From positions 449,332 through 513,331 of the forward strand of contig JAHJTE010000001.1 of assembly GCA_018830005.1 (NCBI GenBank): a DNA stretch of 64,000 nt, in the 5' to 3' direction. This DNA is from Candidatus Omnitrophota bacterium. Lineage in GTDB: Bacteria; Omnitrophota; Gorgyraeia; JAHJTE01. The position numbers and the translations under genes were made by a program. Of this stretch, positions 1 through 32,330 are shown one piece after another. Each line of letters begins with the position of its first letter. Position 1 is the stretch's first letter. Below the pieces are notes generated by a model, which was given only the letters and a program-made list of their open reading frames with translations, was not told where the DNA came from and ran no database searches.

Positions 1-40
1 AAGAAATAGTCTATGGAATCGACTATAGTTAAACAGATTA

Positions 41-1006: not shown

Positions 1007-1402
1007 ATGTTTAAGAAAGACCAAAGATTGAAGATGCAAGAGAAAATTATTGATATCGAAGCCGGGATGCAAGGAAATATTAAATTTAGCAGCCCAGTCA
1101 ACTTAAGAATAAGCGGCAAATTTGAAGGAGAATTAGAAACCCAAGGAGTCTTAGCAATAGGAGAAAAGGCGGATGTAAAAGCTAAGAAGATCAAGGGAGA
1201 GTATATAACAATAGCCGGTAATGTAAAAGGTGATATTATAAGTAGTAAACGTCTGGAACTTTCTTCATCTGCAAAGGTGATTGGAAATATTAAGGCCCCA
1301 ATTTTGGTCATTAATGAAGGTGCTATGTTGAAAGGAAACTGTGAGGTCCCTTTCGAAGCTGAAAAAAGCGAGCCTAAAAAACACTCTAAAAAGAAGAAAT
1401 AA
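1007..1402 (+). CDS. bactofilin (CcmA/DUF583 family) cytoskeletal protein
   Basis: The ORF contains repetitive beta-helical motifs (GKFEGELE..GVLAIGEKADVKAKKIKGEYITIAGNVKGDIIS..LELSSSAKVIGNIKAPILVINEGA) and a Lys-rich tail. Confidence 0.8.
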   Translation: MFKKDQRLKMQEKIIDIEAGMQGNIKFSSPVNLRISGKFEGELETQGVLAIGEKADVKAKKIKGEYITIAGNVKGDIISSKRLELSSSAKVIGNIKAPILVINEGAMLKGNCEVPFEAEKSEPKKHSKKKK

Positions 1403-1544
1403 AGTTCCTTTCTATATTTTTTGATTTTATTTCTTTATACACCTTTTCAAAATTTCTCTCTATGCTTATCTTTACAATAAATCTTTGATGTCCACCTTTT
1501 AAAAGAGGACAGACATTAACTCTCTACCTTCCAAATAGTTACGT

Positions 1545-1752
1545 CTTTTTAAGCCCCAAAACATTGGACAAATAGGACTCCTTCGGCGCGCTCACTGCGT
1601 TCGCTTGCTCAGGATTTCGCTAAAGTGCTCAAAATTTAGCGAGGGGATAGCCTCTCTAAGTCCAGAATATTCTTGATATAACAAGGTATTGCGTATATAA
1701 TTACTCTATTAAATTGAGAGAGGTTTCCCCTCATGATGTTTGAGAGGGACCC
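1545..1752 (+). repeat. intergenic repeat-family copy A (promoter plus conserved leader module)
   Basis: It shares about 60 nt with copy B (ggacaaataggactccttcggcg..ctcac..cgttcgcttgctcaggatttcgctaaa). It also carries the GAGG-loop-CCTC hairpin, TTGATA-17-TATAAT, and the leader gagaggtttcccctcatgatgtttgagagggaccc. Confidence 0.7.
1673..1701 (+). promoter_or_regulatory. sigma70-type promoter (TTGATA-17 nt-TATAAT) inside repeat copy A
   Basis: TTGATA at 1673-1678, 17-nt spacer, TATAAT at 1696-1701. The identical architecture recurs in copies B, D and G. Confidence 0.6.
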
Positions 1753-1785
1753 TTGATTTTTCTACAATAACAGAAAAATCAAGGG
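1750..1785 (+). other. strong hairpin (11-bp stem) in the leader of a structured noncoding region
   Basis: cccttgatttttc-tacaataaca-gaaaaatcaaggg forms a perfect inverted repeat. Confidence 0.5.
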
Positions 1786-2177
1786 TGCTCCTAAGCCTAT
1801 CGGGAAAATATTGTAAAGATTTTCCCGATGTTTAGGCAAGGAGCCCCCTCAAAGTGTTTAAGCGAGGGGGCAGAGTATATTCGGAAAATTAATGGTTGTT
1901 CCGATGTTTAGGCAAGGAGCAATTTTCTTACTGTATTGATTAGAATTGAAATATAATAGCCTCAAAAAGGAGGCTGTATGGGCAGGATGAATTTAGAGTA
2001 ATTAGACTAATCTTAGGGCGCTAGTAAATTAGCGCCTTTTCTAATTAGGTACGTGTCCCCGGAATTTGGTGCAGTTTCTACAAAGTTAATATCCGATAAG
2101 AATGAGGAGATTATTGTCCTTAATTCAGAACTAGCCAAGAAGGTAATAAGAAAAATAACCAAAGGAGGCGGATAAAA

Positions 2178-2804
2178 ATGAACTATTGGTATAAGTATTT
2201 GGGAGCGGTTATAGTTACATCTTTAATGGGCTGTGGTATGTTAACAGAGCCAGTAAAAGAGACTTCTAATGGTTATGAGCTACAGAAAAATACTTCTTTA
2301 AGGGTTATCTTGCAAACTCCTCTTAGCTCCAATACGAATGAGAGGGGCGATCAGTTTACTACGTATCTTGCTCAGGCCTTGGTTTTTAAAGAAAAGGCCA
2401 TATTACCTAAAGATACACAGATACGCGGCTTAGTTAAAAGAGTCAAGAAATATGAAAAACTTGGAGACCGCGCCAGTTTATTTCTGCTTTTTGACCAGAT
2501 TGTTTTTTCTGATGGTATACGAATACCGCTAGTGGCAAGTTTAAATACAGAAGAAGGAGATAGGGTAATAAAGATCAAGGGAAAGGCTCTAAAAGATACC
2601 ACAATAATTGGAGGTAGTGCTCTTGTGGGAACTGTGGTAGGAAGAAAGACATTAGGAAAAGACGGAGCAAAGAAAGGCCTTATTGTTGGAGCAGGCCTTG
2701 GTACAGGTGCTGTGCTTTTGTCTAATATGAAAGAAATAAAACTTCCTGCAGGTACAGAACTTGTGATAAAACTTGATGAACTTCTTCTACTTCCCAAGGA
2801 ATAG
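2178..2804 (+). CDS. hypothetical lipoprotein with a Gly-rich C-terminal hydrophobic segment
   Basis: Signal peptide with lipobox LMGCG. The C-terminus reads GLIVGAGLGTGAVLLSN. An RBS (aaaggaggcgg) lies upstream. Confidence 0.6.
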   Translation: MNYWYKYLGAVIVTSLMGCGMLTEPVKETSNGYELQKNTSLRVILQTPLSSNTNERGDQFTTYLAQALVFKEKAILPKDTQIRGLVKRVKKYEKLGDRASLFLLFDQIVFSDGIRIPLVASLNTEEGDRVIKIKGKALKDTTIIGGSALVGTVVGRKTLGKDGAKKGLIVGAGLGTGAVLLSNMKEIKLPAGTELVIKLDELLLLPKE

Positions 2805-2934
2805 ATGTCAGAGAACTTTGAGGTAGGGGAGTCTAAGGAGTCGGTAGGAGTGTACTGTTTGTCACCTTGATGCAATTGTCCGTCTTCTAATAGAGGACAA
2901 ACAGCAATCCTTTACTTCCCAAATAGTTGCAGAC

Positions 2935-3160
2935 TTCTCAGCCTAAAAATACCGGACAAATAGGACTCCTTCGGCGTACTCACTTCGTTCGCTTGCTCAG
3001 GATTTCGCTAAATACTTATATTAAAGTACTCAAAATTTGGTGAGGAAATCGCCTCTCCGAATCCAGAATTTTCTTGATATAGCAAGGTATTGCGTATATA
3101 ATTGCTCTATTAAATTGAGAGAGGTTTCCCCTCATGACATTTGAGAGGGACCCCATTTTT
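2935..3160 (+). repeat. intergenic repeat-family copy B
   Basis: Near-identical to copy A across the upstream 60 nt, the GAGG-hairpin, the promoter (TTGATA 3074-3079, TATAAT 3097-3102) and the leader gagaggtttcccctcatgacatttgagagggacccc. Confidence 0.7.
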
Positions 3161-3189
3161 TTCATCTCTGATGAAAAAAGTATAAGAGT

Positions 3190-3327
3190 AGGGGACGGTT
3201 CCTTAGAATGTAACTGATTAAGAGGCAATAGATTACAAATACTAATAAACAAGCTAAAAACAAGTTGATTATTTGCTATTATAATTAATTGAAATAAAAT
3301 AACTTGCATCAAGAGGAACCGTCCCCT
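3190..3327. repeat. 14-bp perfect inverted repeat pair (aggggacggttcct / aggaaccgtcccct) bracketing about 110 nt of very AT-rich sequence
   Basis: Left arm 3190-3203, right arm 3314-3327. It resembles a MITE with terminal inverted repeats or a closing stem of a structured RNA. Confidence 0.5.
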
Positions 3328-3443
3328 TAATTCTTAATTCCACTTACTGCGCAAGGAGAAAACAGGAGGAGTTTTGTATCAGATAGCCGATAAACTGTAA
3401 TAAAGCAAATTCCGAAGAAGGGAGAAGAAGGGAGGATTAAAAC

Positions 3444-3581
3444 ATGGCAGACAAGAATAAACCATTGCAGTCAGGCGTTGGATCTCTAAAGCTATTTATC
3501 ATTGCGGCGGTAGTCATCCTTATCGCATGGATAATCGGCAAAGGCGTCTTAACGCTTATTTCATCTGCAAAACAAATGTAA
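3444..3581 (+). CDS. hypothetical small membrane peptide (45 aa)
   Basis: The ORF is below the size cutoff of the ORF track. It has a strong RBS (ggagaagaagggaggattaaaacATG). Translation MADKNKPLQSGVGSLKLFIIAAVVILIAWIIGKGVLTLISSAKQM contains one transmembrane helix. Confidence 0.4.
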   Translation: MADKNKPLQSGVGSLKLFIIAAVVILIAWIIGKGVLTLISSAKQM

Positions 3582-3770
3582 TGGTTTTAGGTTTCATGTT
3601 CTGGAATAATGTCTGAAAAACGGAAATTATAAGAATGAAAATAGCGCTTATTGAACCTCGCGCTTGCGAAGCAAATGTCTAAAGAAAGAGTTCAAATAAT
3701 ATAATAATATTCTAGCGTTAAGTAGCCGGAATAGCAAAGTTAGCAAAGGAATAAGGAAAGGATTAAAATC

Positions 3771-4805
3771 ATGAATGATTATGTGTTTTCTGGCATTTTA
3801 ATAGTATCCGGCTTTACTGCCGGGTGGATACTTTATCTTTTTGTTTCATTTTTGCTTAAACGGAGTGATGGTCTTTTCAAAGAGCTCAAGGCCGATTTAA
3901 GGCGAATTAAAAGTCCCTTACGTTTTTTGGTGCCCGCTTTGTGTATTTCGATGGTTATTCCTTTCTTGCGGTTACCGGAAAAGGTGGGTGGCTTTATTAG
4001 CCATTTTATTCAAATCCTGTTTATTGCGTTGTTTGGTTGGGTTATCGTAAAGATTGTTTTTATTGTCCGCGATGCGCTTTTGAACCGTTATGATATTAAT
4101 GCTCGGGACAATGTGCATGCCCGCAGCATGCATACACAAATACGTTTAATCGCAAACATCATTGGCGTGGTTCTAGTTTTGTTAAGTGTTTCTTTTATTT
4201 TGATGAGTTTTGCAGAAGTCAGGCAGATAGGGGTCAGCATATTGGCTTCGGCAGGAGTTATCGGTATAGTTATAGGTTTTGCTGCACAAAAAACGCTAGG
4301 GAATCTTATCGCCGGCATTCAGATAGCCATCGCTCAGCCAATTCGGCTGGATGATGTGGTCATTATTGAAGGCGAATGGGGATGGATTGAGGAAATTACC
4401 CTCACTTTTGTGGTAGTGCGTATTTGGGATCTAAGGCGATTGGTAATTCCGATATCGTATTTTCTTGAAAAGCCATTTCAGAATTGGACGCGGACTTCAG
4501 CAGATTTGCTGGGAACTGTTTTTATCTATACCGATTACACTGTACCCGTGAAAGAAGTACGTAATGAATTAACACGTATCCTGGAAAATAATTCAAAGTG
4601 GGATAAAAAGGTCAATGTGTTGCAGGTTACCAATGCTACTGAAAAAACAGTTGAACTGCGAGCGCTGATGAGCGCAGCAGATTCTCCTACTGCCTGGGGT
4701 TTACGCTGTGAGGTCAGGGAAAAGCTCCTGGAGTTTCTGCAACAACGCTTCCCGGAATGTTTACCGCGGATTCGCATTGAAATGAATAAGGGGGAATCAA
4801 GTTGA
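3771..4805 (+). CDS. mechanosensitive ion channel, MscS family
   Basis: The ORF has N-terminal transmembrane helices and the MscS core LGNLIAGIQIAIAQPIRLDDVVIIEGEWGWIEEITLTFVVVRIWD. Confidence 0.85.
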   Translation: MNDYVFSGILIVSGFTAGWILYLFVSFLLKRSDGLFKELKADLRRIKSPLRFLVPALCISMVIPFLRLPEKVGGFISHFIQILFIALFGWVIVKIVFIVRDALLNRYDINARDNVHARSMHTQIRLIANIIGVVLVLLSVSFILMSFAEVRQIGVSILASAGVIGIVIGFAAQKTLGNLIAGIQIAIAQPIRLDDVVIIEGEWGWIEEITLTFVVVRIWDLRRLVIPISYFLEKPFQNWTRTSADLLGTVFIYTDYTVPVKEVRNELTRILENNSKWDKKVNVLQVTNATEKTVELRALMSAADSPTAWGLRCEVREKLLEFLQQRFPECLPRIRIEMNKGESS

Positions 4806-4836
4806 TACGAACAGCGTTTTCTGGTAAAAACTCTGC

Positions 4837-4866
4837 TGTCCACCTAAAAGAGGTGGACATTTTATA
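4837..4866 (+). terminator. rho-independent terminator
   Basis: The stem tgtccacct/aggtggaca with loop aaaag is followed by a T-rich run. Confidence 0.7.
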
Positions 4867-4894
4867 TCTATCTATACTTCAAATGGTTACGCAA

Positions 4895-5050
4895 TTTCCA
4901 GCCCAAAATGACCGGACATTTTGGGCAATTCTAACGAGGAAACAGCCTCTCTAAAGTTGCAGTATTAGGCATATATTAAGGTGATTCCTATATATAAGCG
5001 TTATTTGGAAACAGAGAGGTTTCCCCTCATGGAATACGAGAGCGACCCCA
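4895..5050 (+). repeat. intergenic repeat-family copy C (diverged)
   Basis: It contains ccaaaatgaccggaca, the hairpin GAGGaaacagCCTCtct, and the leader gagaggtttcccctcatggaatacgagagcgacccc. The promoter hexamers are not conserved. Confidence 0.55.
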
Positions 5051-5188
5051 TTTTCTATTTCCGTGATTTTCGACGATGTAGCGCCAAGGATAACGGTATG
5101 CAATTACTGAAGTTGCGTTGTTTAAGGATATGTTTTAGCTGAGTTCTTCTTTTGTTATCTCAAAAATATTTATGAAAGGAGGATTGAG

Positions 5189-5719
5189 ATGAAGAAAAAC
5201 ATTGTATTTGCTTTTGCGGCAATTGTTTTTATTGCGTTTTTTCTTCCTTGGGTTTCAGTTGGGACGGGATCTGCAGTCGGAAAACTGACTAAAATTATCC
5301 AGGGAGAGGGGAAGCAAGCGCAATTTATGTCCATAAGCGGTTTTCAGGTTCCGGTTATGGCAAACAGTAAAGAATCAAAATTGATGGTCACAGTTATTAA
5401 AATTTTCCAGCCGGGCATAACAAATGCGGATAAAAAAAGTTACTTAATCTGGGTTGTCCCTCTTATGGCAATAATTATGTCTTTGGCAGCTAGGTTCTTT
5501 AAGGATAATAAGTGGGTGCATTTGGCTATCGCAATAATCGGGGTGTTGATATTTGTGGTGGCGGTATTTAAAATTGCTACAACCGATTTAGATAAAGTAG
5601 TGATGAAGGTAAATATTGAGTCCGGACTATGGTTGGTATTTATCGGTTATCTTGGGATCGGCGTTTTAAGCGTAGTTGAATTTTTGCGTTTATTTAAGGC
5701 CAAGGTCGATTCCGATTGA
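5189..5719 (+). CDS. hypothetical integral membrane protein
   Basis: 176-aa ORF with 4-5 hydrophobic helices and an RBS (aaaggagg). Confidence 0.55.
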   Translation: MKKNIVFAFAAIVFIAFFLPWVSVGTGSAVGKLTKIIQGEGKQAQFMSISGFQVPVMANSKESKLMVTVIKIFQPGITNADKKSYLIWVVPLMAIIMSLAARFFKDNKWVHLAIAIIGVLIFVVAVFKIATTDLDKVVMKVNIESGLWLVFIGYLGIGVLSVVEFLRLFKAKVDSD

Positions 5720-5830
5720 TTTATCCTGTGTATTAACCATTGATATAATGGTCGATTAGGAGTAATTTAAAGTTGTCTTATCAATTAAAAAATAGTTTTT
5801 ATGAGTTATTTTAATTTATGGGAGGTGGGT

Positions 5831-6505
5831 ATGAAAAAAAGAAGCGTGATGTTCGTTGTTGTGGGTTGCGTGTCTTTTCTCTTGCTTGTTACCTCAATCG
5901 CGAGAGCAGAGGAAGTAAAACCGTTGCAGCTAGCGCTAATTGATACAATTCAGCTTGTTCCAGCAACTGATTCGATCAAAGGGCTCCGGTTAGAAGTCTA
6001 CGGGGTTAACAATGATGTGACTGGTTTAAGTTTAGGTTTTGTGCATAAAGCTACAGGTAATGTTAAAGGAGTAGAATTAGGTCTAGTGGGAGTTGTCGAA
6101 GGTGATTTTTATGGTTGGCAGAGCTCTTGGATTCTTAGCTCCGTATCGGGAAGGTTTGTAGGCGTGCAAGGAGGAATTGTTTCTCTTGCTAAAGACAAAT
6201 TTACCGGTTGGCAGAGTGGTATTGTAGCTTCGACTGAGGGGATGTTTAAAGGCCTTCAGAGTGGCCTGGTGAATATTGCTAATACTGATGCCAAAGGAGT
6301 CCAGCTCGGTGCTGTTAACTGGACTGAAAATTCCTTTGAGGGAGTTCAGCTGGGCATTGTTAATCATGCCGGCGAAGTGCGCGGATTACAGCTTGGTATT
6401 GTCAATTATACCAAGTCTCTCAACGGCCTCCAGATCGGCCTTGCCAACTACAACGGCAATAAAGACCCTCTGGAATTCATGGTGCTTGTTAACTGGTCGT
6501 TCTAA
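5831..6505 (+). CDS. secreted protein with tandem about 14-15-aa G-x-Q-x-G-x-V-N repeats
   Basis: The start is at ATG 5831 (RBS ggaggtg), followed by signal peptide MKKRSVMFVVVGCVSFLLLVTSIARA. At least six repeats of the form G(L/V)Q(L/S)G(I/L/A)VN are present. Confidence 0.6.
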   Translation: MKKRSVMFVVVGCVSFLLLVTSIARAEEVKPLQLALIDTIQLVPATDSIKGLRLEVYGVNNDVTGLSLGFVHKATGNVKGVELGLVGVVEGDFYGWQSSWILSSVSGRFVGVQGGIVSLAKDKFTGWQSGIVASTEGMFKGLQSGLVNIANTDAKGVQLGAVNWTENSFEGVQLGIVNHAGEVRGLQLGIVNYTKSLNGLQIGLANYNGNKDPLEFMVLVNWSF

Positions 6506-6624
6506 TTAATCTATAAACTATCCTTTAGCTCAAACAGGGATATCTCCTAATATGCGCTCAATTGATATAGGGGGATATCCCTATATTTTAGCCTTATCTT
6601 TCAAATAGTTTAGAAAGTTAGGTC

Positions 6625-6827
6625 AAAAATGACTGGACAAAACGGACATGGCTCGACGCATTCGTTTCGCCCTTCGAAGAAGCTCAGGGTTTGCTTCATT
6701 TGCTCACCATGAGTGAGGAATCACCTCTCTGAAGTCAAAATATTCTTGATATAACAAGGTATTGCGGATATAATTGCCATTGTGAATTAAGAGAGGTTTC
6801 CCCTCGGCTAATATGAGAGCGACCCCA
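6625..6827 (+). repeat. intergenic repeat-family copy D
   Basis: It contains gactggacaaaacggac, ttgctcaccatgagtGAGGaatcaCCTCtct, a promoter (TTGATA 6746-6751, TATAAT 6769-6774) and the leader gagaggtttcccctcggctaatatgagagcgacccc. Confidence 0.7.
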
Positions 6828-6902
6828 ATTCTTGAGAATATGTGATTAAATAGTAGTAATGAGTCAAGGTTGCAATAAGCACAGCACAAAAGGGGTATCA
6901 AC

Positions 6903-7256
6903 ATGAAAAACCTTTTCAGCCAGTTACGTGTAAACAAAAACATCTGTTTCTGTCTTATCCTTTTCTCTGTTGCTGCCGTGGTTTGTGCGCAGACACTCGA
7001 GAGACAGCGTCCCCCTATATCTGCGCAGGAAGCCATCCGCCTGGCCGAACGATACGTGACTAATAACAAGATTGACGTCTCGAAGCATTTCATCAGTTCG
7101 GTGCGCTATATTGTGTCGGGAAGTTGGACAGATAGCTCAATAGGCAAAGGTCCCTATTGGCAAGTAACCTACGAATTGGTTCAATTAGCGGATGGGGGTC
7201 AGCACTTCATATTGATTTATATGGACGGTAAGATCGGCAGAATCGGCGGATTATGA
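6903..7256 (+). CDS. hypothetical secreted protein (possibly PepSY-like)
   Basis: 117-aa ORF with an N-terminal signal peptide (CLILFSVAAVVCAQT). Confidence 0.5.
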   Translation: MKNLFSQLRVNKNICFCLILFSVAAVVCAQTLERQRPPISAQEAIRLAERYVTNNKIDVSKHFISSVRYIVSGSWTDSSIGKGPYWQVTYELVQLADGGQHFILIYMDGKIGRIGGL

Positions 7257-7284
7257 AAACAAGTTCGCCGAAGCATTCATTGGT

Positions 7285-7328
7285 CGTTAAGAGAGGTTTC
7301 CCCTCGGCTAATATGAGAGGGACCCCAG
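7285..7328 (+). repeat. intergenic repeat-family copy E (3' leader module only)
   Basis: The sequence gagaggtttcccctcggctaatatgagagggacccc lacks the upstream promoter part. Confidence 0.55.
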
Positions 7329-7363
7329 TAATATCATTCTCTTCAGCATTCGGGAGAGTTTCA

Positions 7364-7399
7364 AGGCTATTGATTGATACCGGTCAATAGCCTTTTTTA
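7364..7399 (+). terminator. rho-independent terminator
   Basis: aggctattga...tcaatagcct followed by TTTTTT. Confidence 0.7.
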
Positions 7400-7665
7400 T
7401 CTGTTGCTGTTTCAAAGAGTTAGGGCATTATATTTATTGGCACTATATCGAATTTTTCCACACCATAAGCTGTTTATAAAGCCTCTCTGAATATCGCCAC
7501 TTAATCGCCAAAATAGGCCAATTCCTCTCTTAGTTTATGGCAGCTAGTTTATGCTATATTGGTCAAGATATTGGATATAGATCGGGTTGAATATGGGCAT
7601 AAACTAGGAATTGAGAAGGCTCATTATGTGTTGCAAATATATCAAATTGGGATATAATTCCTTAT

Positions 7666-8988
7666 ATGGAGAATAATGGCTTAATCATAGCATTGACAGG
7701 GCGGTTTGGGGCTGGTTGTTCAACAACAGCTAATTTCTTTGCCAATAATAAGAAGCTGAATTGTAAAAGCTATAGCATCTCAGCATTTCTGAAAGACAAG
7801 GCAAAGAAAGAAATAGTCAATTTTGAACAAAAGAATCCCGAAGAAAGAAGAAAGATTCTGCAGGATTTGGGTGATAGTTTAAGAAAGGAAAAGCTAAGCG
7901 CTCTGGTAGATCCTATAATTAAAGACATTAAAGATAACAATGTAGAAAATGTGGTTATTGAATGCATCAGAAATCCAGGTGAGGTTACAGAATTAAGGCA
8001 TGCATTTGGTAATCGTTTTTTTCTCTTAGCCATAGACTCAGAGACAGAAACTCGTTGGAAGAGAGTCGAAAAGATGTATAAAGGAAATAGAGCAAACTTC
8101 GATATTAATGACCGACGAGATGCTGGTGAGGAGCAGCCGCCATTGCCTAATGGGCAAAATGTGAAAAAGTGCATTGAGCTAGCGGATATATTGATTAATA
8201 GCGAAGATAATTTTTATAAAGAAGATGAAACAAAAGACGAAGTAGTTATTGATCGCTACGGACAAAAACTATCCGATTATACTGAATTAATGTTAAACCC
8301 GGGTGCCAGACCACCATATCCGGATGAATTATATATGCATCATTCTTGTAGCGTGGCTTTATGGTCTAAATGTTCCAGGAGACAGGTAGGGGCTACTATA
8401 ATCCATGAGGTGTTGAATAAGAAACCTGATAAGCAAGATGTAAAAAATAAGAGCGATAGCGATAAAGAAATTATACTTGAAAGTTACGTCATTGCGACTG
8501 GTTGTAATAATGTACCATGGGGAGAGATTGATTGCAGAGTTTTGTACAAGAGTGAGTCGACTAAAAAAAGATGTCATAAAGAAAAGGTTAAGATTAAACA
8601 TTTTAGCAAGTACAAATATTGCAGGGAATGTGGGGCGGCATTGAACGATCGTACTTTAGTTTGTACCTGTGGAGTTGAAAATTCAAAATTACCCGGAAAG
8701 TTGTTGGATGTTTGTAGAGCTGTTCATGCGGAAGAGTCAGCTATACTCCAGGCAGCCAAGTTAGGAACCACCCCATTAAATGGGGCTAAGCTTTATACTT
8801 CTACTTTTCCTTGCATGCTTTGTTGTAAAAAGATTATTAACGCAGGTATCAAGAATTTAATATATTTAGAGTCTTACCCGATGGAAGAGTCATTAGCTAT
8901 TAGCATGTTTAGGAAGTGTAATGTCAAGATTTCTAAATACGAAGGTGTGAATTCAATTGTATTTAACAGGCTTTTTAAAAGAGAATAG
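7666..8988 (+). CDS. P-loop kinase-like domain fused to a zinc-dependent cytidine/dCMP deaminase domain; candidate anti-phage dCTP deaminase
   Basis: The N-terminus has a Walker-A-like LTGRFGAGCSTT. The middle has a zinc ribbon (CRECGAALNDRTLVCTCG). The C-terminus has the CDA signature HAEESAIL...PCMLCC. Confidence 0.75.
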   Translation: MENNGLIIALTGRFGAGCSTTANFFANNKKLNCKSYSISAFLKDKAKKEIVNFEQKNPEERRKILQDLGDSLRKEKLSALVDPIIKDIKDNNVENVVIECIRNPGEVTELRHAFGNRFFLLAIDSETETRWKRVEKMYKGNRANFDINDRRDAGEEQPPLPNGQNVKKCIELADILINSEDNFYKEDETKDEVVIDRYGQKLSDYTELMLNPGARPPYPDELYMHHSCSVALWSKCSRRQVGATIIHEVLNKKPDKQDVKNKSDSDKEIILESYVIATGCNNVPWGEIDCRVLYKSESTKKRCHKEKVKIKHFSKYKYCRECGAALNDRTLVCTCGVENSKLPGKLLDVCRAVHAEESAILQAAKLGTTPLNGAKLYTSTFPCMLCCKKIINAGIKNLIYLESYPMEESLAISMFRKCNVKISKYEGVNSIVFNRLFKRE

Positions 8989-9045
8989 CGATAAAGTTCT
9001 TGCATTGAGACAAAAAAGAATTATAATATAGTCAAAGAGATAAAT

Positions 9046-9234
9046 ATGAAAAGATGTCCTCAATGTAAAAGATTTGGCGTTGAGTATGATCCCCAGACAG
9101 GAAAAGAGAAATGTGTCTGGAGTGATTGCTTGTGGATTAATGAAACAGATATTGATTTAGATACTTATGATTACGGAGTAAATTTTGTAGAATTTAGGGA
9201 TTCTATAAATATCAAGCGAGAAATGGCAGTTTAA
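9046..9234 (+). CDS. small zinc-ribbon protein (CPQC...C..C)
   Basis: 62-aa ORF with a CxxC pair (CPQCKRFG...CVWSDC). It is followed by a bidirectional terminator. Confidence 0.4.
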   Translation: MKRCPQCKRFGVEYDPQTGKEKCVWSDCLWINETDIDLDTYDYGVNFVEFRDSINIKREMAV

Positions 9235-9251
9235 AATTAAATATTCTGACA

Positions 9252-9283
9252 AAAGCGATAGCCAAAAGCTATCGCTTTTTTTG
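9252..9283. terminator. bidirectional rho-independent terminator between convergent genes
   Basis: agcgatagc-caaaa-gctatcgct followed by TTTTTTT. It lies between the + strand 9046 gene and the - strand recombinase. Confidence 0.65.
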
Positions 9284-9287
9284 TTTT

Positions 9288-10898
9288 TTATAATGATAAA
9301 GCTATAAGTAAGTTTTTCCACATTTCGAGCTGTTTATTCCAATTTAACTCGAAGGCAATGTTGCGTAGCTTGTACTCGGGGATTAAGGAGATATTTTTGT
9401 TTTCTGAGCAGAGGATTTCTTCTTGTATAGTTGGCGCAAGCAGCAAAAGGTTCATCATTTGATTGAGCCGCTGGTGATTCAAGTTAAGCCATTTGGCAAC
9501 TTGCTTTAAGCCTTCAGCTTTTCCTTCAGCAAGGATGCCTTGGACTTGATGTGCCAAGATAAGATTCTGCCTTAATTGTGGCTCGTTCTTGATATTTATT
9601 TGATTAGGAGGGACTGGCAGGTTTTTGAGTTCCTTGAGTCCTACCTTATATTGGCGTCTCCTATTATCTTTTAGCAGAACGATTTCAAGTATCCCTTTAT
9701 TACCATCGAAACTTGCTTCTTTAAGGACTGTTTTAATGATTGCAATCTTTTCTTGAAGGCTAAAGGTATCCCATATTTTTTCGTCGAGTTTGGGTAGAGG
9801 AGTCAAGGTTCTGAGTAATTCGACGATTTTCTGTTCAATCTTCTGCGTGCTCAGTAAGCGGGTAGGACAGGTTTTGTAGCCACGCTTACTGGCGCTCATA
9901 CAAAGGTAGTAGTGATACCTGTATTTATTGGCTTTGATGTTGTAGGAGAAGTACATCGCGCAGTTGCAGGCTTTACAGCGCAGGAGGCCGGTAAGCAGAC
10001 CCACATGTTTAGTCTTCTTGGTCATTTTCCAGTCAGGCTTGTTTTTTGCAAGTATGCTTTGTGCTTTCTGGAAGGTTTTTTCCGAAATAATTGCTTCATG
10101 TTCTCCCGGATATAACTCGGCCTGGTATGAAACCTTGCCGGCGTAAAGCACATTTCTTAAGATTAGCTGAATACCGTTGATTGTAAACTGAATCCCACCG
10201 AATTTTCTGCCTTTTTCAGATGTATGCTGCTTAGTTGTACATCCCAGGTCATTCATAATCATGGTTACGGACAGAAGGGAGCGCTTTTCAATATACGAGG
10301 TGAAGATTTTACGCACGATCTTGGCTTCTTTCTGGTTAACCACGAGCTTATGCTTATCCTTATCGATGTTATAGCCTAAAGATGGCCTTCCTCCGATCCA
10401 TTTGCCTTTTCTCTTAGCAGCGCCCATCTTGTCGCGGGTGCGTTCTGAGATAATCTCGCGCTCAAACTGCGCAAAAGAGAGGAGGATATTAAGCGTAAGC
10501 CTGCCCATCGAGTTTTGCGTATTAAAGTGCTGTGTTACTGATACGAAGGTGGCACCATGTTTTTCAAATACAGACAGGAGCTCTGCAAAATCAAGAAGTG
10601 AGCGCGATAAGCGGTCAACCTTATAGACTACTACGCAATTAATTTTATTGGCTTTGATGTCAGTAAGAAGCCTCTGAAGTGCAGGTCTGTCTGTATTGGC
10701 TCCGGTGAAGCCACCGTCATCGTAGTATTCTGGCGAAGCTACCCAGCCTTCGTTTTTCTGGCTGGTGATGTAGCTTTCGCAGGACTCGCGTTGGGCATCC
10801 AGAGTAGTAAAGTCGCGCTCAAGTCCATCGCTGACCGATTTGCGCGTATAAATGGCGCAATTAATAATCTTTTTTTCTTCGGGTTCTGTAGTTTTCAT
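9288..10898 (-). CDS. large serine recombinase (resolvase/invertase N-domain, recombinase domain and zinc ribbon)
   Basis: The N-terminus has the catalytic Ser region (AIYTRKSVSDGLERDFTTLDAQRE) and VVVYKVDRLSRSL. Further along are YRYHYYLC...CP and a coiled-coil. The start overlaps the stop of the upstream DUF2924 gene (ATGA). Confidence 0.9.
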   Translation of the reverse strand: MKTTEPEEKKIINCAIYTRKSVSDGLERDFTTLDAQRESCESYITSQKNEGWVASPEYYDDGGFTGANTDRPALQRLLTDIKANKINCVVVYKVDRLSRSLLDFAELLSVFEKHGATFVSVTQHFNTQNSMGRLTLNILLSFAQFEREIISERTRDKMGAAKRKGKWIGGRPSLGYNIDKDKHKLVVNQKEAKIVRKIFTSYIEKRSLLSVTMIMNDLGCTTKQHTSEKGRKFGGIQFTINGIQLILRNVLYAGKVSYQAELYPGEHEAIISEKTFQKAQSILAKNKPDWKMTKKTKHVGLLTGLLRCKACNCAMYFSYNIKANKYRYHYYLCMSASKRGYKTCPTRLLSTQKIEQKIVELLRTLTPLPKLDEKIWDTFSLQEKIAIIKTVLKEASFDGNKGILEIVLLKDNRRRQYKVGLKELKNLPVPPNQINIKNEPQLRQNLILAHQVQGILAEGKAEGLKQVAKWLNLNHQRLNQMMNLLLLAPTIQEEILCSENKNISLIPEYKLRNIAFELNWNKQLEMWKNLLIALSL

Positions 10899-27949: not shown

Positions 27950-28488
27950 TCTTCTATCCTTATAGTCTTCGGAATGTTCGCTTTTTGTATAGAGGATAGC
28001 CTGCTATTTTTTCTTTATAACCAGTTGAGCGAATTTTGTTTCTGAAGATGTTGGGAAAAGATATAATTGCTTTTATGAATAAGGAGAGGAATTTCCTCGC
28101 GAAACGTTAGAAGGACCCCATTTACCGATTTTATGATATAATTTTAGCCAGATGAAAATTAAGGGTGTCGTCATGCGGGATGGGCCAAGATAAAAGGAGA
28201 TACGTTGGCAAGAGATAATTATTCATATAAAAAGTATCAGAAAGAATTGGCCAGGAAAAAGAAGGCAGAGGAAAAGAAACAAAGAAAACTGGATAAAAAA
28301 GCGATGGAGGCCACGCCTGAGTCTGGACAGGTTCCCAATGACCAGGTCGCCTTAGAATAAAGAAATACTTGTAATCTTTTTTAAAAGTCCTATAATCATA
28401 ACTCAAGGCTAAATCTTTAGCAGAAATAAAAGACACCCCGCGCTTATTGGAATTGCGCGGGCGTTGTCCTTGTAGACAAGGAGGAAAC

Positions 28489-28650: not shown

Positions 28651-28920
28651 AAGAAGATATTTTGTTAGTCTCTTGTTTCTAGTAGATCCGCAAAGGTAAT
28701 GTTTTAAATCATTTTGTGGCGGTTCTTGCAATAATTTTAGACTTATTTCTCTTACAATTAATGCCTCTAGAAATCAGCGAGGAATTCCTTCTCTGGTGCT
28801 CAAAACTCCTAGATATAGTAGGATATTATGTCTAAAATACAACCAGGCAAACAAGAGAGTTTTTCCCTCGGCCCATACGAAAGGGGCCCTTAAGATATTT
28901 GGAATTACTAAAGGACGAAA

Positions 28921-29184: not shown

Positions 29185-29437
29185 GAATAGACCGCCACAT
29201 TTAACTTAACCTCTTATTTTACAATAGATTATGTAATTCGCTTTGTAAAATACCTATTCTTGTGTTATACTTATAAGTGGATAAGACTATAAAGTCAGTA
29301 AGACGAGAAAGGCAAACCATTTGAAAGAATGGGGCGGGCCGAGTGCCCGGTCCTAAAAGGACCGCAAAACTTCAAGAGCCTAAATCCTTGAAAGTGAGGA
29401 TATGGTAGTCAGTTGCCGAAACAGAACGAAGAAGTTT

Positions 29438-29471
29438 AAGCCTATTCTTTCAAAAGAATAGGCTTTTTTAT
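29438..29471 (+). terminator. rho-independent terminator (possibly the 3' end of a small RNA)
   Basis: aagcctattctt-tcaaa-agaataggctt followed by TTTTTAT. Confidence 0.65.
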
Positions 29472-32165: not shown

Positions 32166-32300
32166 TTTGGTGCTCAAAATTTGGCGAGGAAAATGACCTC
32201 TTTAGAACACCGAATTTTCTTGATAATTGGTATATTCTCGATATAATAAAGTCTTGTAGATAAAGATAGGAGTTCTCTCGTGATATTTGAGGGAGACCCC
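32166..32300 (+). repeat. intergenic repeat-family copy G
   Basis: It contains gctcaaaatttggcGAGGaaaatgaCCTCtt, a promoter (TTGATA 32220-32225, TATAAT 32242-32247) and the leader ggagttctctcgtgatatttgagggagacccc. Confidence 0.65.
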
Positions 32301-32330
32301 AGCTTTTTTTGCAGCATTAAAATAAAAGTA

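What the first reader, a model, noticed from the sequence alone, without database searches (positions are those of the whole stretch)
1480..7330. Family of conserved intergenic modules (five copies in 6 kb) carrying an outward sigma70 promoter
Copies A (1545-1752), B (2935-3160), C (4895-5050), D (6625-6827) and E (7285-7328) each follow the terminator hairpin of the upstream gene. Where full length, they share these parts:
- a block cAAATAGTT…cAAAAtgaCcGGACAaa;
- a small GAGG-loop-CCTC hairpin (…GAGGaaatcaCCTCtct, resembling an anti-SD-like aatCACCTCtct in D and F);
- a perfect TTGATA-17-TATAAT promoter;
- a 45-nt leader, (a)ttaaattGAGAGGTTTCCCCTC-N8-11-tttGAGAGGGACCCCa.

Copies A and B are more than 90% identical over about 200 nt. 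The elements sit upstream of genes for a lipoprotein, a small membrane peptide plus MscS, a membrane protein and a secreted protein. This looks like either a MITE-like mobile promoter cassette or a dedicated regulon signal (shared promoter plus cis-regulatory leader) for envelope genes.
Basis: seen in the sequence. Interest (0 to 1): 0.7.

Follow-up and report, generated by a model that had tools for sequence, protein, structure and literature searches.

The report
Portable promoter-plus-leader module in Omnitrophota
A roughly 250-base intergenic module (terminator hairpin, conserved boxes, near-consensus promoter and a 45-base leader that can fold into a hairpin) recurs in front of unrelated small genes in a subset of uncultured Omnitrophota bacteria and sits at points where gene order has been rearranged, so it looks like a reusable, movable expression cassette that has not been described before.

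Summary
The window holds eight + strand copies of the leader AGAGAGGTTTCCCCTC-N9-GAGAGGGACCCCA, not five.

The same module, about 250 nt long, occurs in 38 stretches of species-representative genomes, almost all Omnitrophota, and in about 20 metagenome contigs. It is absent from Rfam 15, from viral contigs and from the searched literature.

The leader folds as a bulged hairpin. Support comes from a few compensatory changes and an excess of G.U over A.C substitutions.

Downstream content is mixed:
- small membrane, secreted or stress proteins;
- cytoplasmic enzymes;
- in about 30% of copies, a second hairpin plus terminator at fixed distance, giving units that look like ~120-nt sRNAs.

Thirteen loci around close orthologues of three array genes contain no copy. 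The module-bearing segments lie exactly at synteny breakpoints, two of which keep 3' remnants of ancestral upstream genes.

Best reading: a portable, insulated promoter-plus-leader cassette that rewires transcription. What the leader does, and how the module moves, remain unknown. It is not an envelope-only regulon, not a classic MITE, and not a supported riboswitch or inverton.

The parts
1489..1762 (+). Module A. Hairpin TGTCC..GGACA 1489-1511; CAAATAGTT 1532-1540; GGACAAATAGGAC 1566-1578; optional insert about 1579-1639; IR-L CGAGGGGATAGCCTCTCT 1640-1657; -35/-10 1673-1701; leader 1716-1754 (G1 = 1718).
   Evidence: (55.9 bits)
1763..2067 (+). Unique sequence downstream of leader A. It contains a hairpin at 1745-1787, a 31-nt direct repeat at 1814-1844/1890-1920, and a terminator-like hairpin at 2015-2038. 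It ends at the synteny breakpoint 2067/2068.
2068..2175 (+). Remnant of the 3' end of an MscS-family gene. In L171 that gene precedes and overlaps the orthologous lipoprotein gene.
   Evidence: L171 7892-8698 = window 2068-2875, 91% nt identity
2877..3163 (+). Module B. Hairpin 2877-2899; CAAATAGTT 2920-2928; GGACAAATAGGAC 2954-2966; IR-L 3041-3058; -35/-10 3074-3102; leader 3117-3155 (G1 = 3119).
   Evidence: (69.1 bits)
3164..3362 (+). Unique sequence downstream of leader B, with a long hairpin (14-bp perfect arms at 3190-3203 and 3314-3327). It ends at the breakpoint 3362/3363.
3363..3400 (+). Remnant of the last 12 codons plus stop of a DUF748 gene. In L164 and L160 that gene directly precedes the 45-aa peptide and MscS genes.
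4820..5055 (+). Module C (variant type). Terminator hairpin 4837-4859; CAAATGGTT 4880-4888; GGACATTTTGGGC 4914-4926; IR-L 4935-4952; no TTGATA-17-TATAAT (candidate -10 TATATA ends 17 nt before G1); leader 5012-5050 (G1 = 5014; G to C at the sixth base of the 3' half). The left boundary 4819/4820 is defined by loss of homology with L159 and L164.
   Evidence: (58.8 bits)
5056..5162 (+). Unique sequence downstream of leader C, up to the breakpoint 5162/5163. Homology with L166 (90% nt identity) starts there, 26 nt before the start codon.
6599..6832 (+). Module D. It starts at the homology boundary with L166. CAAATAGTT 6602-6610; GGACAAAACGGAC 6635-6647; IR-L 6714-6730; -35/-10 6746-6774; leader 6789-6827 (G1 = 6791).
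   Evidence: (64.2 bits)
7285..7400 (+). Unit E: a three-hairpin, sRNA-like unit with no recognisable promoter of its own. Leader 7289-7327; linker AGTAATATC; hairpin 2 at about 7338-7358; intrinsic terminator 7363-7394 followed by TTTTTTATCT.
   Evidence: (63.8 bits)
28078..28125 (+). Diverged leader copy behind a TATAAT box, upstream of a 51-aa lysine-rich ORF.
   Evidence: (37.7 bits)
28849..28896 (+). Diverged leader copy, 32 nt (motif end to start codon) upstream of an 87-aa ORF. An IR-L-like box lies at about 28776-28795.
   Evidence: (44.8 bits)
32185..32306 (+). Diverged module. IR-L 32185-32203; TTGATA-16-TATAAT 32220-32247; leader 32259-32306, whose stem is kept in a shifted register without the bulged A.
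   Evidence: (22.8 bits)

Best explanation
The repeats are copies of a lineage-restricted, portable expression module found in a subset of Candidatus Omnitrophota.

A full module reads, 5' to 3':
- a TGTCC-loop-GGACA hairpin, usually followed by a T-run, which would insulate the module from upstream transcription;
- the conserved boxes CAAAGAGTTACG and GGACA-N4-GGACA;
- a small palindromic box, GCGAGGAAnnnnCCTCTCT (IR-L), centred near -65. It is an inverted copy of the first half of the leader;
- a near-consensus sigma-70 promoter, whose -10 hexamer ends 16-17 nt before the leader;
- a 45-nt leader that would start about 10 nt into the transcript.

The leader would fold into a hairpin of about 8 bp with a bulged A, a 2x2 internal loop and a 2-bp outer helix. 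The 5' AGAGA stays single-stranded.

The module starts transcription of whatever lies downstream: small ORFs, long 5' UTRs, or a second hairpin plus terminator (sRNA-like units of about 120 nt). It has been moved or recombined in front of pre-existing gene blocks, so it rewires operons into independent transcription units.

Shown here: the anatomy, the conservation, the promoter geometry, the sequence support for the hairpin, the patchy distribution and the synteny breakpoints.

Inferred: that the promoter fires, and that the leader acts as RNA. The most likely roles for the leader are a 5' stabilising or insulating structure, or the binding site of a lineage-specific factor. The mechanism of movement is also inferred. 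No transposase, target-site duplication or fixed ends were found, so recombination at or near the repeats is the default.
For: Repeat family:
- Five exact and three diverged copies in the window, all on the + strand.

Occurrence elsewhere:
- 38 stretches in species-representative genomes, 33 of them titled Omnitrophota or Omnitrophica.
- About 20 further modules recovered through an anchor in the upstream box, a search that did not select on the leader.

Promoter geometry:
- 46 of 79 leaders have a strict TTGNNN-16..18-TATAAT ending 16-17 nt before the first leader G. Only 0.9% of random positions do.
- IR-L is present in 59 of 79, and GGACA-N4-GGACA in 41 of 76.
- Module consensus over 59 copies.

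RNA hairpin:
- 93% of cells are paired, with 11 double changes; 0 of 500 shuffles reach the observed covariation score.
- L155 changes CC to UU together with GG to AA on the partner strand. L038 changes C-G to U-A.
- G.U outnumbers A.C 38 to 15 on the sense strand.
- The consensus folds at -15 kcal/mol, z = -2.2.
- The diverged copy at 32259 keeps a stem in another register.

Portability:
- No copy in 13 loci (about 160 kb) around orthologues of the MscS, 176-aa and lipoprotein genes, including relatives with 90-91% nucleotide identity.
- Homology with those relatives stops exactly at the module-bearing segments. The shared blocks are 2068-2875, 3363-4819 and 5163-6598.
- Remnants of the ancestral upstream genes remain at 2068-2175 and 3363-3400.
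- Orthologous genes with 80% amino-acid identity (L019 and L012) carry different promoter subtypes but the same leader.

Orientation:
- The first long ORF downstream is on the module's strand in 54 of 62 cases.

Operational match:
- The family meets the definition of putative mobile promoters: similar promoter sequence upstream of non-homologous genes (PMC3488235).
Against: - No transcript data exist. Promoter activity and the transcription start are predictions from consensus matches.
- No target-site duplications, no fixed ends and no associated transposase were found, so 'portable' rests on comparative synteny only. Gene blocks moving between fixed modules would give the same picture.
- Covariation is thin because the motif is almost invariant. 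Much of the alignment was also collected with the motif itself, which biases it towards conservation.
- Copies C and D carry a G to C change that weakens the stem.
- IR-L and the GGACA boxes lie upstream of the predicted start, and an RNA-only role for the leader does not explain them.
- In several units a terminator-like hairpin lies between the leader and the gene (A: 2015-2038). The module may therefore not be the promoter of that gene.
- Some orthologous pairs at 47-48% amino-acid identity both carry the module. That fits long-term functional retention as well as it fits mobility.
Confidence: 0.55

Rival explanations
1. A fixed regulon signal rather than a mobile one. A lineage-specific regulator (a DNA-binding factor at GGACA-N4-GGACA and/or at the GAGG-N5/6-CCTC palindromes near -65 and +20, or an RNA-binding factor on the leader hairpin) co-regulates a stress or envelope regulon. 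sRNA units carrying the same motif could titrate that factor.
For: - The same gene families recur behind the leader in different genomes. Examples are MscS-type channels (window; L004 and L002 by sequence inspection), YeaQ/GlsB-like proteins (L006, L026), rubrerythrin-like proteins (L151, L023) and one secreted family (L012, L019, L031 twice).
- Orthologous pairs at 47-48% amino-acid identity both keep the module.
- Whole-module conservation extends to boxes at positions typical of activator and operator sites.
- IR-L, the promoter and the leader are strictly coupled in the window.
Against: - The module is absent from all 13 loci around close orthologues of the window's own array genes, some with 90% nucleotide identity.
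- Gene content is heterogeneous: GreA-, CarB-, GpmA-, YajQ-, Fur-like proteins, a helicase and toxin-antitoxin-like genes (most of these names come from reading the sequences, not from a family search).
- Module segments lie at rearrangement breakpoints.
- The G.U over A.C asymmetry and the compensatory changes argue against a purely DNA-level site for the leader.
Confidence: 0.2
2. A non-autonomous selfish repeat, similar to MITE, Correia, REPIN or BIME elements. IR-L and the first half of the leader would be the terminal inverted palindromic units flanking a spacer of about 70 bp. Promoter activity would be incidental, and a trans-acting transposase or RAYT-like enzyme would move the element.
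For: - IR-L is an inverted copy of the leader 5' half (for D: 19 nt, 84% complementary; folds).
- Each unit is itself a small palindrome.
- Copies are clustered and vary between close relatives.
- Constant flanks are combined with at least six different internal promoter subtypes.
Against: - No target-site duplication.
- The conserved sequence extends well beyond both inverted repeats: the GGACA boxes upstream and the second half of the leader downstream.
- Orientation is not random.
- Subfamilies are shared across species rather than being genome-specific bursts.
- No transposase with matching ends was seen in the window or the loci. The only recombinase nearby is a large serine recombinase associated with the sRNA unit, not with the array junctions.
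Confidence: 0.15
3. A small riboswitch or attenuator. The 45-nt leader would sense a ligand or factor and control the downstream hairpin or terminator, or would itself act as a hairpin plus U-tract terminator.
For: - Almost every unpaired position is conserved, as in compact aptamers.
- About 25 of 77 leaders are followed by a terminator at a fixed distance.
- About 23 of 81 are followed directly by CCCCA plus a T-run (counted by eye).
- In unit A the next hairpin overlaps the 3' CCC of the leader.
Against: - There is no match to any Rfam 15 family even at E <= 10.
- The downstream genes share no pathway.
- Stems are conserved in sequence rather than covarying freely.
- Terminator-bearing units lie 250-450 nt from the next gene. 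In L011 they lie upstream of a separate TPP riboswitch.
- Unit E follows a stop codon without a promoter.
Confidence: 0.07
4. An invertible promoter (phase-variation switch). The inverted repeats IR-L and IR-R would be the crossover sites for a recombinase that flips the promoter segment of about 70 bp.
For: - Inverted repeats flank the promoter.
- Many downstream products are surface or secreted proteins.
- A serine recombinase gene lies 2 kb from unit E.
Against: - All of about 80 copies whose upstream sequence was printed in assembled genomes and metagenomes have the promoter pointing at the leader; none is inverted.
- The repeats are imperfect and short.
- The recombinase is a 536-aa large serine recombinase of the integrase type. 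Its homologues sit next to the sRNA units, not next to the arrays.
Confidence: 0.03
5. A promoter-proximal processive antitermination signal, similar to put or EAR RNA or to ops/JUMPStart. It would make RNA polymerase read through the hairpins and terminators in the long 5' UTRs.
For: - The position is fixed just after the promoter.
- Sequence conservation is strong.
- Terminator-like hairpins lie between the leader and the gene in units A and B.
Against: - Most downstream units are short and monocistronic.
- About 30% simply end at a strong terminator roughly 70 nt later, which implies that termination is not suppressed.
- No similarity to Rfam antitermination RNAs was found.
Confidence: 0.05

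Closest known systems
Putative mobile promoters (PMPs; Matus-Garcia, Nijveen and van Passel 2012, PMC3488235)
   Same: Highly similar promoter-containing intergenic sequence, 50-100 nt or longer and at least 80% identical, sits upstream of non-homologous genes within a genome and across genomes. It is inferred to rewire transcription.
   Different: - This module is longer (about 250 nt) and has a defined grammar: terminator hairpin, boxes, promoter and structured leader.
- It is conserved across many species of one phylum.
- It also heads sRNA-like units.
- PMP is an operational class with no mechanism, so membership says little about how the module works.
Correia elements (CREE) of Neisseria and other MITEs that carry outward promoters
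   Same: These are short intergenic repeats with inverted ends that can supply promoters. When co-transcribed they form hairpins, and they differ in presence between close relatives.
   Different: - Correia elements have 26-bp terminal inverted repeats, a TA target duplication, both orientations and hundreds of dispersed copies.
- Here no duplication was found and orientation is non-random.
- Conserved sequence extends outside the inverted repeats.
- Copies cluster in arrays.
REP / BIME / REPIN elements
   Same: Small palindromic units occur in inverted pairs separated by a spacer, are confined to intergenic DNA, and persist for long periods in a lineage.
   Different: - REPINs lie mostly at 3' ends of genes, carry no promoter and are tied to a RAYT gene.
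- Here the spacer is a promoter, and one unit is transcribed as the 5' leader.
- No RAYT was looked for genome-wide.
5' mRNA stabilisers (ompA 5' hairpin; Bacillus STAB-SD and aprE leader). This comparison rests on my own knowledge, not on a tool result.
   Same: A stem-loop and an SD-like purine tract (AGAGAGG) lie within the first 10-50 nt of the transcript, independent of the coding sequence.
   Different: - Known stabilisers are not sequence-conserved families shared by many genes.
- No decay data exist here.
Integron cassette arrays with conserved attC repeats (for example Vibrio VCRs). This comparison rests on my own knowledge.
   Same: Co-oriented small genes of the accessory type are separated by a conserved repeat of about 120-300 nt with hairpin potential. 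The genes are found in other contexts in relatives.
   Different: - No integron integrase is present.
- The repeats lack attC symmetry and the R'/R'' cores.
- Each repeat carries its own promoter.
- Junction positions are not fixed.

Membership tests
Putative mobile promoter family (PMP) | Promoter-containing sequence of at least 50 nt and at least 80% identity upstream of non-homologous genes in one genome | tested here: met
   A and B are 83% identical over 268 nt and 87% over 142 nt. The leader region is at least 90% identical among A-E. Downstream genes are unrelated.
Putative mobile promoter family (PMP) | Same sequence upstream of non-homologous genes in other genomes | tested here: met
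MITE / Correia-like element | Terminal inverted repeats at the ends of the conserved unit | tested here: inconclusive
   IR-L and the leader 5' half are inverted copies of each other. However, conservation continues about 100 nt to the left and 25 nt to the right of them.
MITE / Correia-like element | Target-site duplication flanking copies | tested here: not met
   Junctions defined by comparison with relatives lie at 2067/2068, 2875/2876, 3362/3363, 4819/4820, 5162/5163 and 6598/6599. They show no duplicated flank.
MITE / Correia-like element | Insertion in either orientation relative to neighbouring genes | tested here: not met
   The first long ORF downstream is on the module's strand in 54 of 62 cases. 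All 8 window copies are on the + strand.
Riboswitch (any Rfam class) | Match to a curated covariance model | tested here: not met
   No match at 1400-7500 with E <= 10. In the window and 16 loci only c-di-GMP-I, TPP, nhaA-I and tRNA were found, all elsewhere.
Riboswitch (generic) | Association with genes of one pathway or transport function | tested here: not met
   The downstream proteins are heterogeneous.
Invertible promoter (inverton) | Inverted repeats flanking a promoter | tested here: met
Invertible promoter (inverton) | Both orientations observed among sequences or reads | tested here: not met
   None of about 80 assembled copies whose upstream sequence was printed has the promoter inverted. 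Read-level data are not available with these tools.
Integron-type cassette array | Integron integrase and attC sites with R''/L''-L'/R' symmetry | tested here: not met
   Pfam on nine proteins encoded next to the array (1007-10898) finds only a large serine recombinase at 9288-10898. The repeat has no end-to-end dyad symmetry.
Structured cis-acting RNA (new family) | Base pairs supported by compensatory or wobble-compatible change on the transcribed strand | tested here: inconclusive
   - 11 cells show changes on both sides, and 0 of 500 shuffles reach the observed covariation score.
- G.U outnumbers A.C 38 to 15, p = 0.002 without tree correction.
- Most columns are invariant, and the alignment was collected with the motif itself.
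Sigma-70 promoter | Transcription initiates downstream of the -10 hexamer | not testable with these tools
   Only consensus matches and fixed spacing are available.

The most novel reading that the evidence does not exclude
The modules may be the junction elements of a previously unrecognised gene-capture system in Omnitrophota. In this reading, gene blocks cut out of operons (leaving 3' stubs of the upstream gene) are assembled into co-oriented arrays. Each block is placed behind a self-contained terminator-promoter-leader unit. The leader and IR-L hairpins would serve as the recombination substrate, or the leader would be a new kind of self-insulating or self-processing 5' RNA. That would make this an integron-like system in which every cassette brings its own expression signals.
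Probability: 0.12. Interest if true: 0.85.

Novelty: new variant of a known kind. Interest (0 to 1): 0.6.

Why it matters
If the reading is right, uncultured Omnitrophota carry a natural, reusable 'insulated promoter plus leader' part that turns captured genes into independent transcription units.

- That would be direct evidence for promoter mobilisation as a route of regulatory evolution in a phylum with no genetics.
- It defines a new, very strongly conserved 45-nt RNA motif, and a family of sRNA-like units of about 120 nt, that Rfam does not hold. Both can now be annotated in MAGs.
- It gives a ready set of predicted transcription starts for metatranscriptome work on these organisms.
- The part may also be useful as a compact expression cassette.

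Tried and rejected
- **Rfam:** searches at gathering and at E <= 10 found nothing at the modules.
- **Viral contigs:** a scan with the leader pattern gave 0 hits.
- **Literature:** searches for the sequence, and for Omnitrophota plus promoter, leader or RNA motif, found nothing relevant.
- **Metagenome anchor:** Only about 20 were true modules.
- **Leader peptide:** ATG occurs in the loop of only some copies, so this was rejected.
- **Anti-SD mimicry, T-loop or tRNA-like mimicry, CsrA-type GGA sites:** I considered these by eye and dropped them, because the sequence fits none of them consistently.
- **Divergent promoter on the minus strand:** no credible -35/-10 pair (reading).
- **Inverton:** no inverted copies were seen (see rival explanations).
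- **MITE in the 5' UTR of unit B:** the 14-bp inverted repeat at 3190/3314 is unique in the window and absent from 170 loci.
- **Chimeric assembly at the repeats:** the breakpoints lie in unique sequence outside the repeated part, and the source contig is 848 kb. I consider this unlikely, but it is not excluded.
- **Orthologue test:** I expected orthologues of the MscS and 176-aa genes to carry the module. They do not, and this changed the interpretation from 'phylum-wide regulon' to 'patchy, portable module'.

Full report
**1. The observation**

The 15-mer GAGAGGTTTCCCCTC occurs exactly at 1718, 3119, 5014, 6791 and 7291, all on the + strand. None of 100 shuffles gave 6 or more matches. The repeat finder recovers a five-copy 50-nt family and a longer family joining A, B and D.

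- the TGTCC...GGACA hairpin (A, B, C);
- CAAAT(A/G)GTT;
- GGACA-N4-GG(A/G)C;
- a GAGG-loop-CCTCTCT box;
- the leader AGAGAGGTTTCCCCTC-N9-GAGAG(G/C)GACCCC.

The promoter scan gives TTGATA-17-TATAAT (11 of 12 matches) at 1673-1701, 3074-3102 and 6746-6774 only.

Several details need correcting. C has no such promoter. E is the leader alone, 35 nt after a stop codon. A and B are 83-87% identical, not more than 90%.

A covariance model built from 81 instances finds three more copies in the window, at 28078, 28849 and 32259. All are on the + strand. The last one has its own IR-L box and TTGATA-16-TATAAT.

**2. Occurrence elsewhere**

An exact-pattern scan of one genome per species found 38 stretches. 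Thirty-three are titled Omnitrophota or Omnitrophica, and the other five are MAGs labelled Planctomycetales, Patescibacteria or Chloroflexi. Viral contigs gave none.

A metagenome scan used the upstream box CCGGACAAAACGGACA, so it did not select on the leader. About 20 stretches were true modules, and nearly all of these have the leader about 130 nt downstream.

Approximate matching and the covariance model raise the count to about 80 distinct instances, with few intermediate scores. Copies cluster: L031 has four in 8 kb, L005 three, and the window five in 6 kb.

Rfam 15 has no matching family, even at E <= 10. Full-text searches found no description.

**3. Anatomy of the module**

The consensus over 59 copies reads:
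- a terminator-like hairpin, atgtccg-loop-ggaca, plus TTTTATATC;
- tcAAAnAgTTacg;
- agccaaaAatnaccGGACAaaacGGaca;
- gcGagGaAatnnCCTCTCTaAa (IR-L);
- an AT-rich stretch, then tTgaTa, 17 nt, TATAAT;
- 16-17 nt containing taaAt;
- GAGAGGTTTCCCCTC, ggctnATac, GAGAGGGACCCCA.

A strict TTGNNN-16..18-TATAAT ends 16-17 nt before the first leader G in 46 of 79 instances. Only 0.9% of random positions in the same DNA have this. Many of the remaining instances have TATAAT at the same distance with a weaker -35.

IR-L is present in 59 of 79 instances. It is an inverted copy of the leader's first half. In the window, IR-L followed by TTG, and the GGACA repeat, occur only within modules.

At least six promoter subtypes, differing in spacer sequence, are combined with the same IR-L and leader. 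Each subtype is shared by several species.

**4. Is the leader an RNA structure?**

The consensus folds into a hairpin of -15 kcal/mol (z = -2.2). It has an 8-bp stem interrupted by a bulged A, a 2x2 internal loop and a 2-bp outer helix. The conserved 5' AGAGA is left unpaired.

On the 81-sequence alignment, 93% of cells are paired. Eleven cells show changes on both sides, and 0 of 500 shuffles reach the observed covariation score. Slid controls drop to 41-72% paired.

The clearest cases are these:
- L155 has CC to UU with GG to AA on the partner strand;
- L038:4273 has C-G changed to U-A;
- many copies have C to U opposite G.

Single transitions give G.U 38 times and A.C 15 times on the sense strand. 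The binomial p is 0.002, not corrected for relatedness. This asymmetry is expected for an RNA read from this strand, and not for a DNA site.

The diverged copy at 32259 keeps a continuous stem in a different register.

There are caveats. The motif is nearly invariant, the alignment was collected with the motif itself, and copies C and D carry a destabilising G to C change. I put the probability that the leader acts as RNA at about two in three.

**5. What lies downstream**

A simple gene call gave 65 downstream proteins. Roughly half have hydrophobic N-termini.

The window units encode a lipoprotein-like protein, a 45-aa membrane peptide plus MscS (Pfam PF00924), a 176-aa membrane protein plus a 234-aa protein, and a 117-aa secreted protein. 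Most have no Pfam match.

Elsewhere the leader precedes products that, by sequence inspection, look like GreA, CarB, GpmA, YajQ, rubrerythrin, Fur, DedA, an SPFH protein, Thi4, a DEAD-box helicase and toxin-antitoxin-like proteins.

In about 25 of 77 instances the leader is followed by a second hairpin and a strong intrinsic terminator at a fixed position. The stem starts 39-44 nt, and the T-run 67-70 nt, after the motif. These are sRNA-like units of about 120 nt with covarying hairpins 2 and 3, and unit E is one of them. Fourteen of 77 have a start codon within 70 nt.

The first long ORF downstream is on the module's strand in 54 of 62 cases.

This mixture does not fit a pathway-specific riboswitch or an envelope-only regulon.

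**6. Distribution and turnover**

The window comes from an 848-kb contig of an Omnitrophica MAG. I fetched 13 loci (about 160 kb) around orthologues of three array genes:
- MscS, at 71-89% amino-acid identity;
- the 176-aa protein, at 46-91%;
- the lipoprotein, at 88%.

The covariance model with filters off finds no leader in any of them.

Nucleotide comparison defines sharp homology blocks:
- window 2068-2875 = L171 7892-8698 (91%);
- window 3363-4819 = L164, L160 and L159;
- window 5163-6598 = L166 5355-6784 (90%).

Everything between the blocks is module-bearing sequence absent from the relatives: 1403-2067, 2876-3362, 4820-5162, and from 6599 onward.

Two junctions keep fossils of the ancestral operon. 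Window 2068-2175 is the 3' end of an MscS-family gene, which in L171 overlaps the lipoprotein gene. Window 3363-3400 is the last 12 codons plus stop of a DUF748 gene, which directly precedes the 45-aa and MscS genes in L164 and L160. In L166 a tRNA with duplicated fragments lies where module C lies here.

The array is therefore a mosaic of gene blocks taken out of other contexts, each now preceded by a module.

No target-site duplication or fixed module ends are visible.

Conversely, two orthologous pairs at 47-48% amino-acid identity both carry the module (window/L021 and L019/L031). L019 and L012, at 80% identity, carry different promoter subtypes with the same leader. The module is therefore both old and subject to turnover.

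**7. Interpretation**

The best-supported reading is a portable expression module: an upstream insulating terminator, conserved boxes, a strong sigma-70 promoter and a structured 5' leader. It starts transcription of whatever follows and has been recombined in front of pre-existing genes.

It meets the operational definition of a putative mobile promoter family (PMC3488235). It differs in being longer, having a defined grammar, being conserved across species, and being shared with sRNA-like units.

The leader's role is inferred. It could be a 5' stabilising or insulating hairpin, or the binding site of a lineage-specific factor. IR-L and the GGACA boxes upstream of the start suggest an additional DNA-level partner.

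The rival explanations (fixed regulon, MITE/REPIN-like selfish repeat, riboswitch or attenuator, inverton, antitermination signal) are weighed in their own sections. Each fails at least one direct test made here.

**8. Limits**

- No expression data exist.
- The collections could be scanned only once each, so I could not take a census of whole genomes.
- The taxonomy of the MAGs below phylum level is unknown.
- Gene calls in the loci are heuristic.
- Names given to downstream proteins, other than those and the precomputed Pfam tables, come from reading the sequences.

Noticed in passing
window 7285-7400; L026 3591 and 6382, L027, L033, L038 5644, L145, L151, L019 5192, L031 2141 and 6410, L137 2879, L016, L025 6882: There is a family of three-hairpin units of about 120 nt: leader, linker AGUAAU.., covarying hairpin 2, then a covarying terminator followed by TTTTTTATCT. 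They look like a multi-copy sRNA family that is not in Rfam.
   Followed up: partly
window 7396-7546 and 9288-10898 (-); L026 3723-3852 and 3954-4085; L016 2-598; L019 5494-5619; L145 5180-5316: A conserved sequence follows the sRNA-unit terminator. It is followed, in the opposite orientation, by a large serine recombinase (Resolvase + Recombinase + Zn_ribbon_recom) or by remnants of one. This suggests an integrative element that targets the flank of the sRNA unit.
   Followed up: partly
window 7666-8988: A 440-aa protein combines an N-terminal P-loop (AAA_18) with a dCMP/cytidine deaminase domain. This is a defence-like architecture, and the gene lies between the sRNA unit and the recombinase.
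   Followed up: no
window 3190-3203 / 3314-3327: A perfect 14-bp inverted repeat, AGGGGACGGTTCCT, encloses an AT-rich 110 nt in the 5' UTR of the 45-aa/MscS unit. It is unique in the window and absent from all 170 loci.
   Followed up: yes
window 1814-1844 and 1890-1920; 2015-2038: A 31-nt direct repeat (..TCCCGATGTTTAGGCAAGGAGC) and a terminator-like hairpin lie in the 420-nt stretch between leader A and the lipoprotein gene. Unit A may therefore be a separate non-coding RNA of about 330 nt.
   Followed up: no
window 29301-29420: A c-di-GMP-I riboswitch (53 bits) lies upstream of the ORF that starts at 29471. A diverged leader copy lies about 450 nt upstream, at 28849.
   Followed up: no
L025 ~170-230, L033 ~700-760, L037 ~850-910, L145 ~5080-5140, L151 ~2150-2200, L020, L065, L002, L027: A second conserved motif, GGAGAGGnCGTCCCCTTGTGCAATATTACTGCCCGTCC, is preceded by a CTCTCAAAT box. 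It resembles the leader's first half but has a different 3' partner, and it is not in Rfam.
   Followed up: partly
L048 ~1090-1140 and L158 ~3150-3200: The same upstream module and a promoter are joined to a different leader, GCGCGTTGAGAGATATAGTTATTACCTATACTGATGCGCGCAAC.
   Followed up: no
L166 4940-5345: In a close relative, the orthologue of the window's 176-aa gene lies behind a tRNA gene. That tRNA is preceded by two copies of a 178-nt repeat beginning with a tRNA-like fragment, which looks like integration scars.
   Followed up: no
L160 2269-7050; L161 4557-13035; L159 2543-4554: In relatives, the MscS orthologue sits among genes that suggest osmotic-stress functions: BON, Transgly_assoc, DUF748, TrkH/TrkA, CLC channel, trehalose-phosphate synthase and phosphatase, and DUF1646. 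None of these loci has a module.
   Followed up: no
L130 1216-1290, L064, L142, L152: Unrelated metagenome contigs carry tandem arrays of CCGGACAAAACGGACA-type repeats. They resemble iterons and have no relation to the module beyond the shared word.
   Followed up: no
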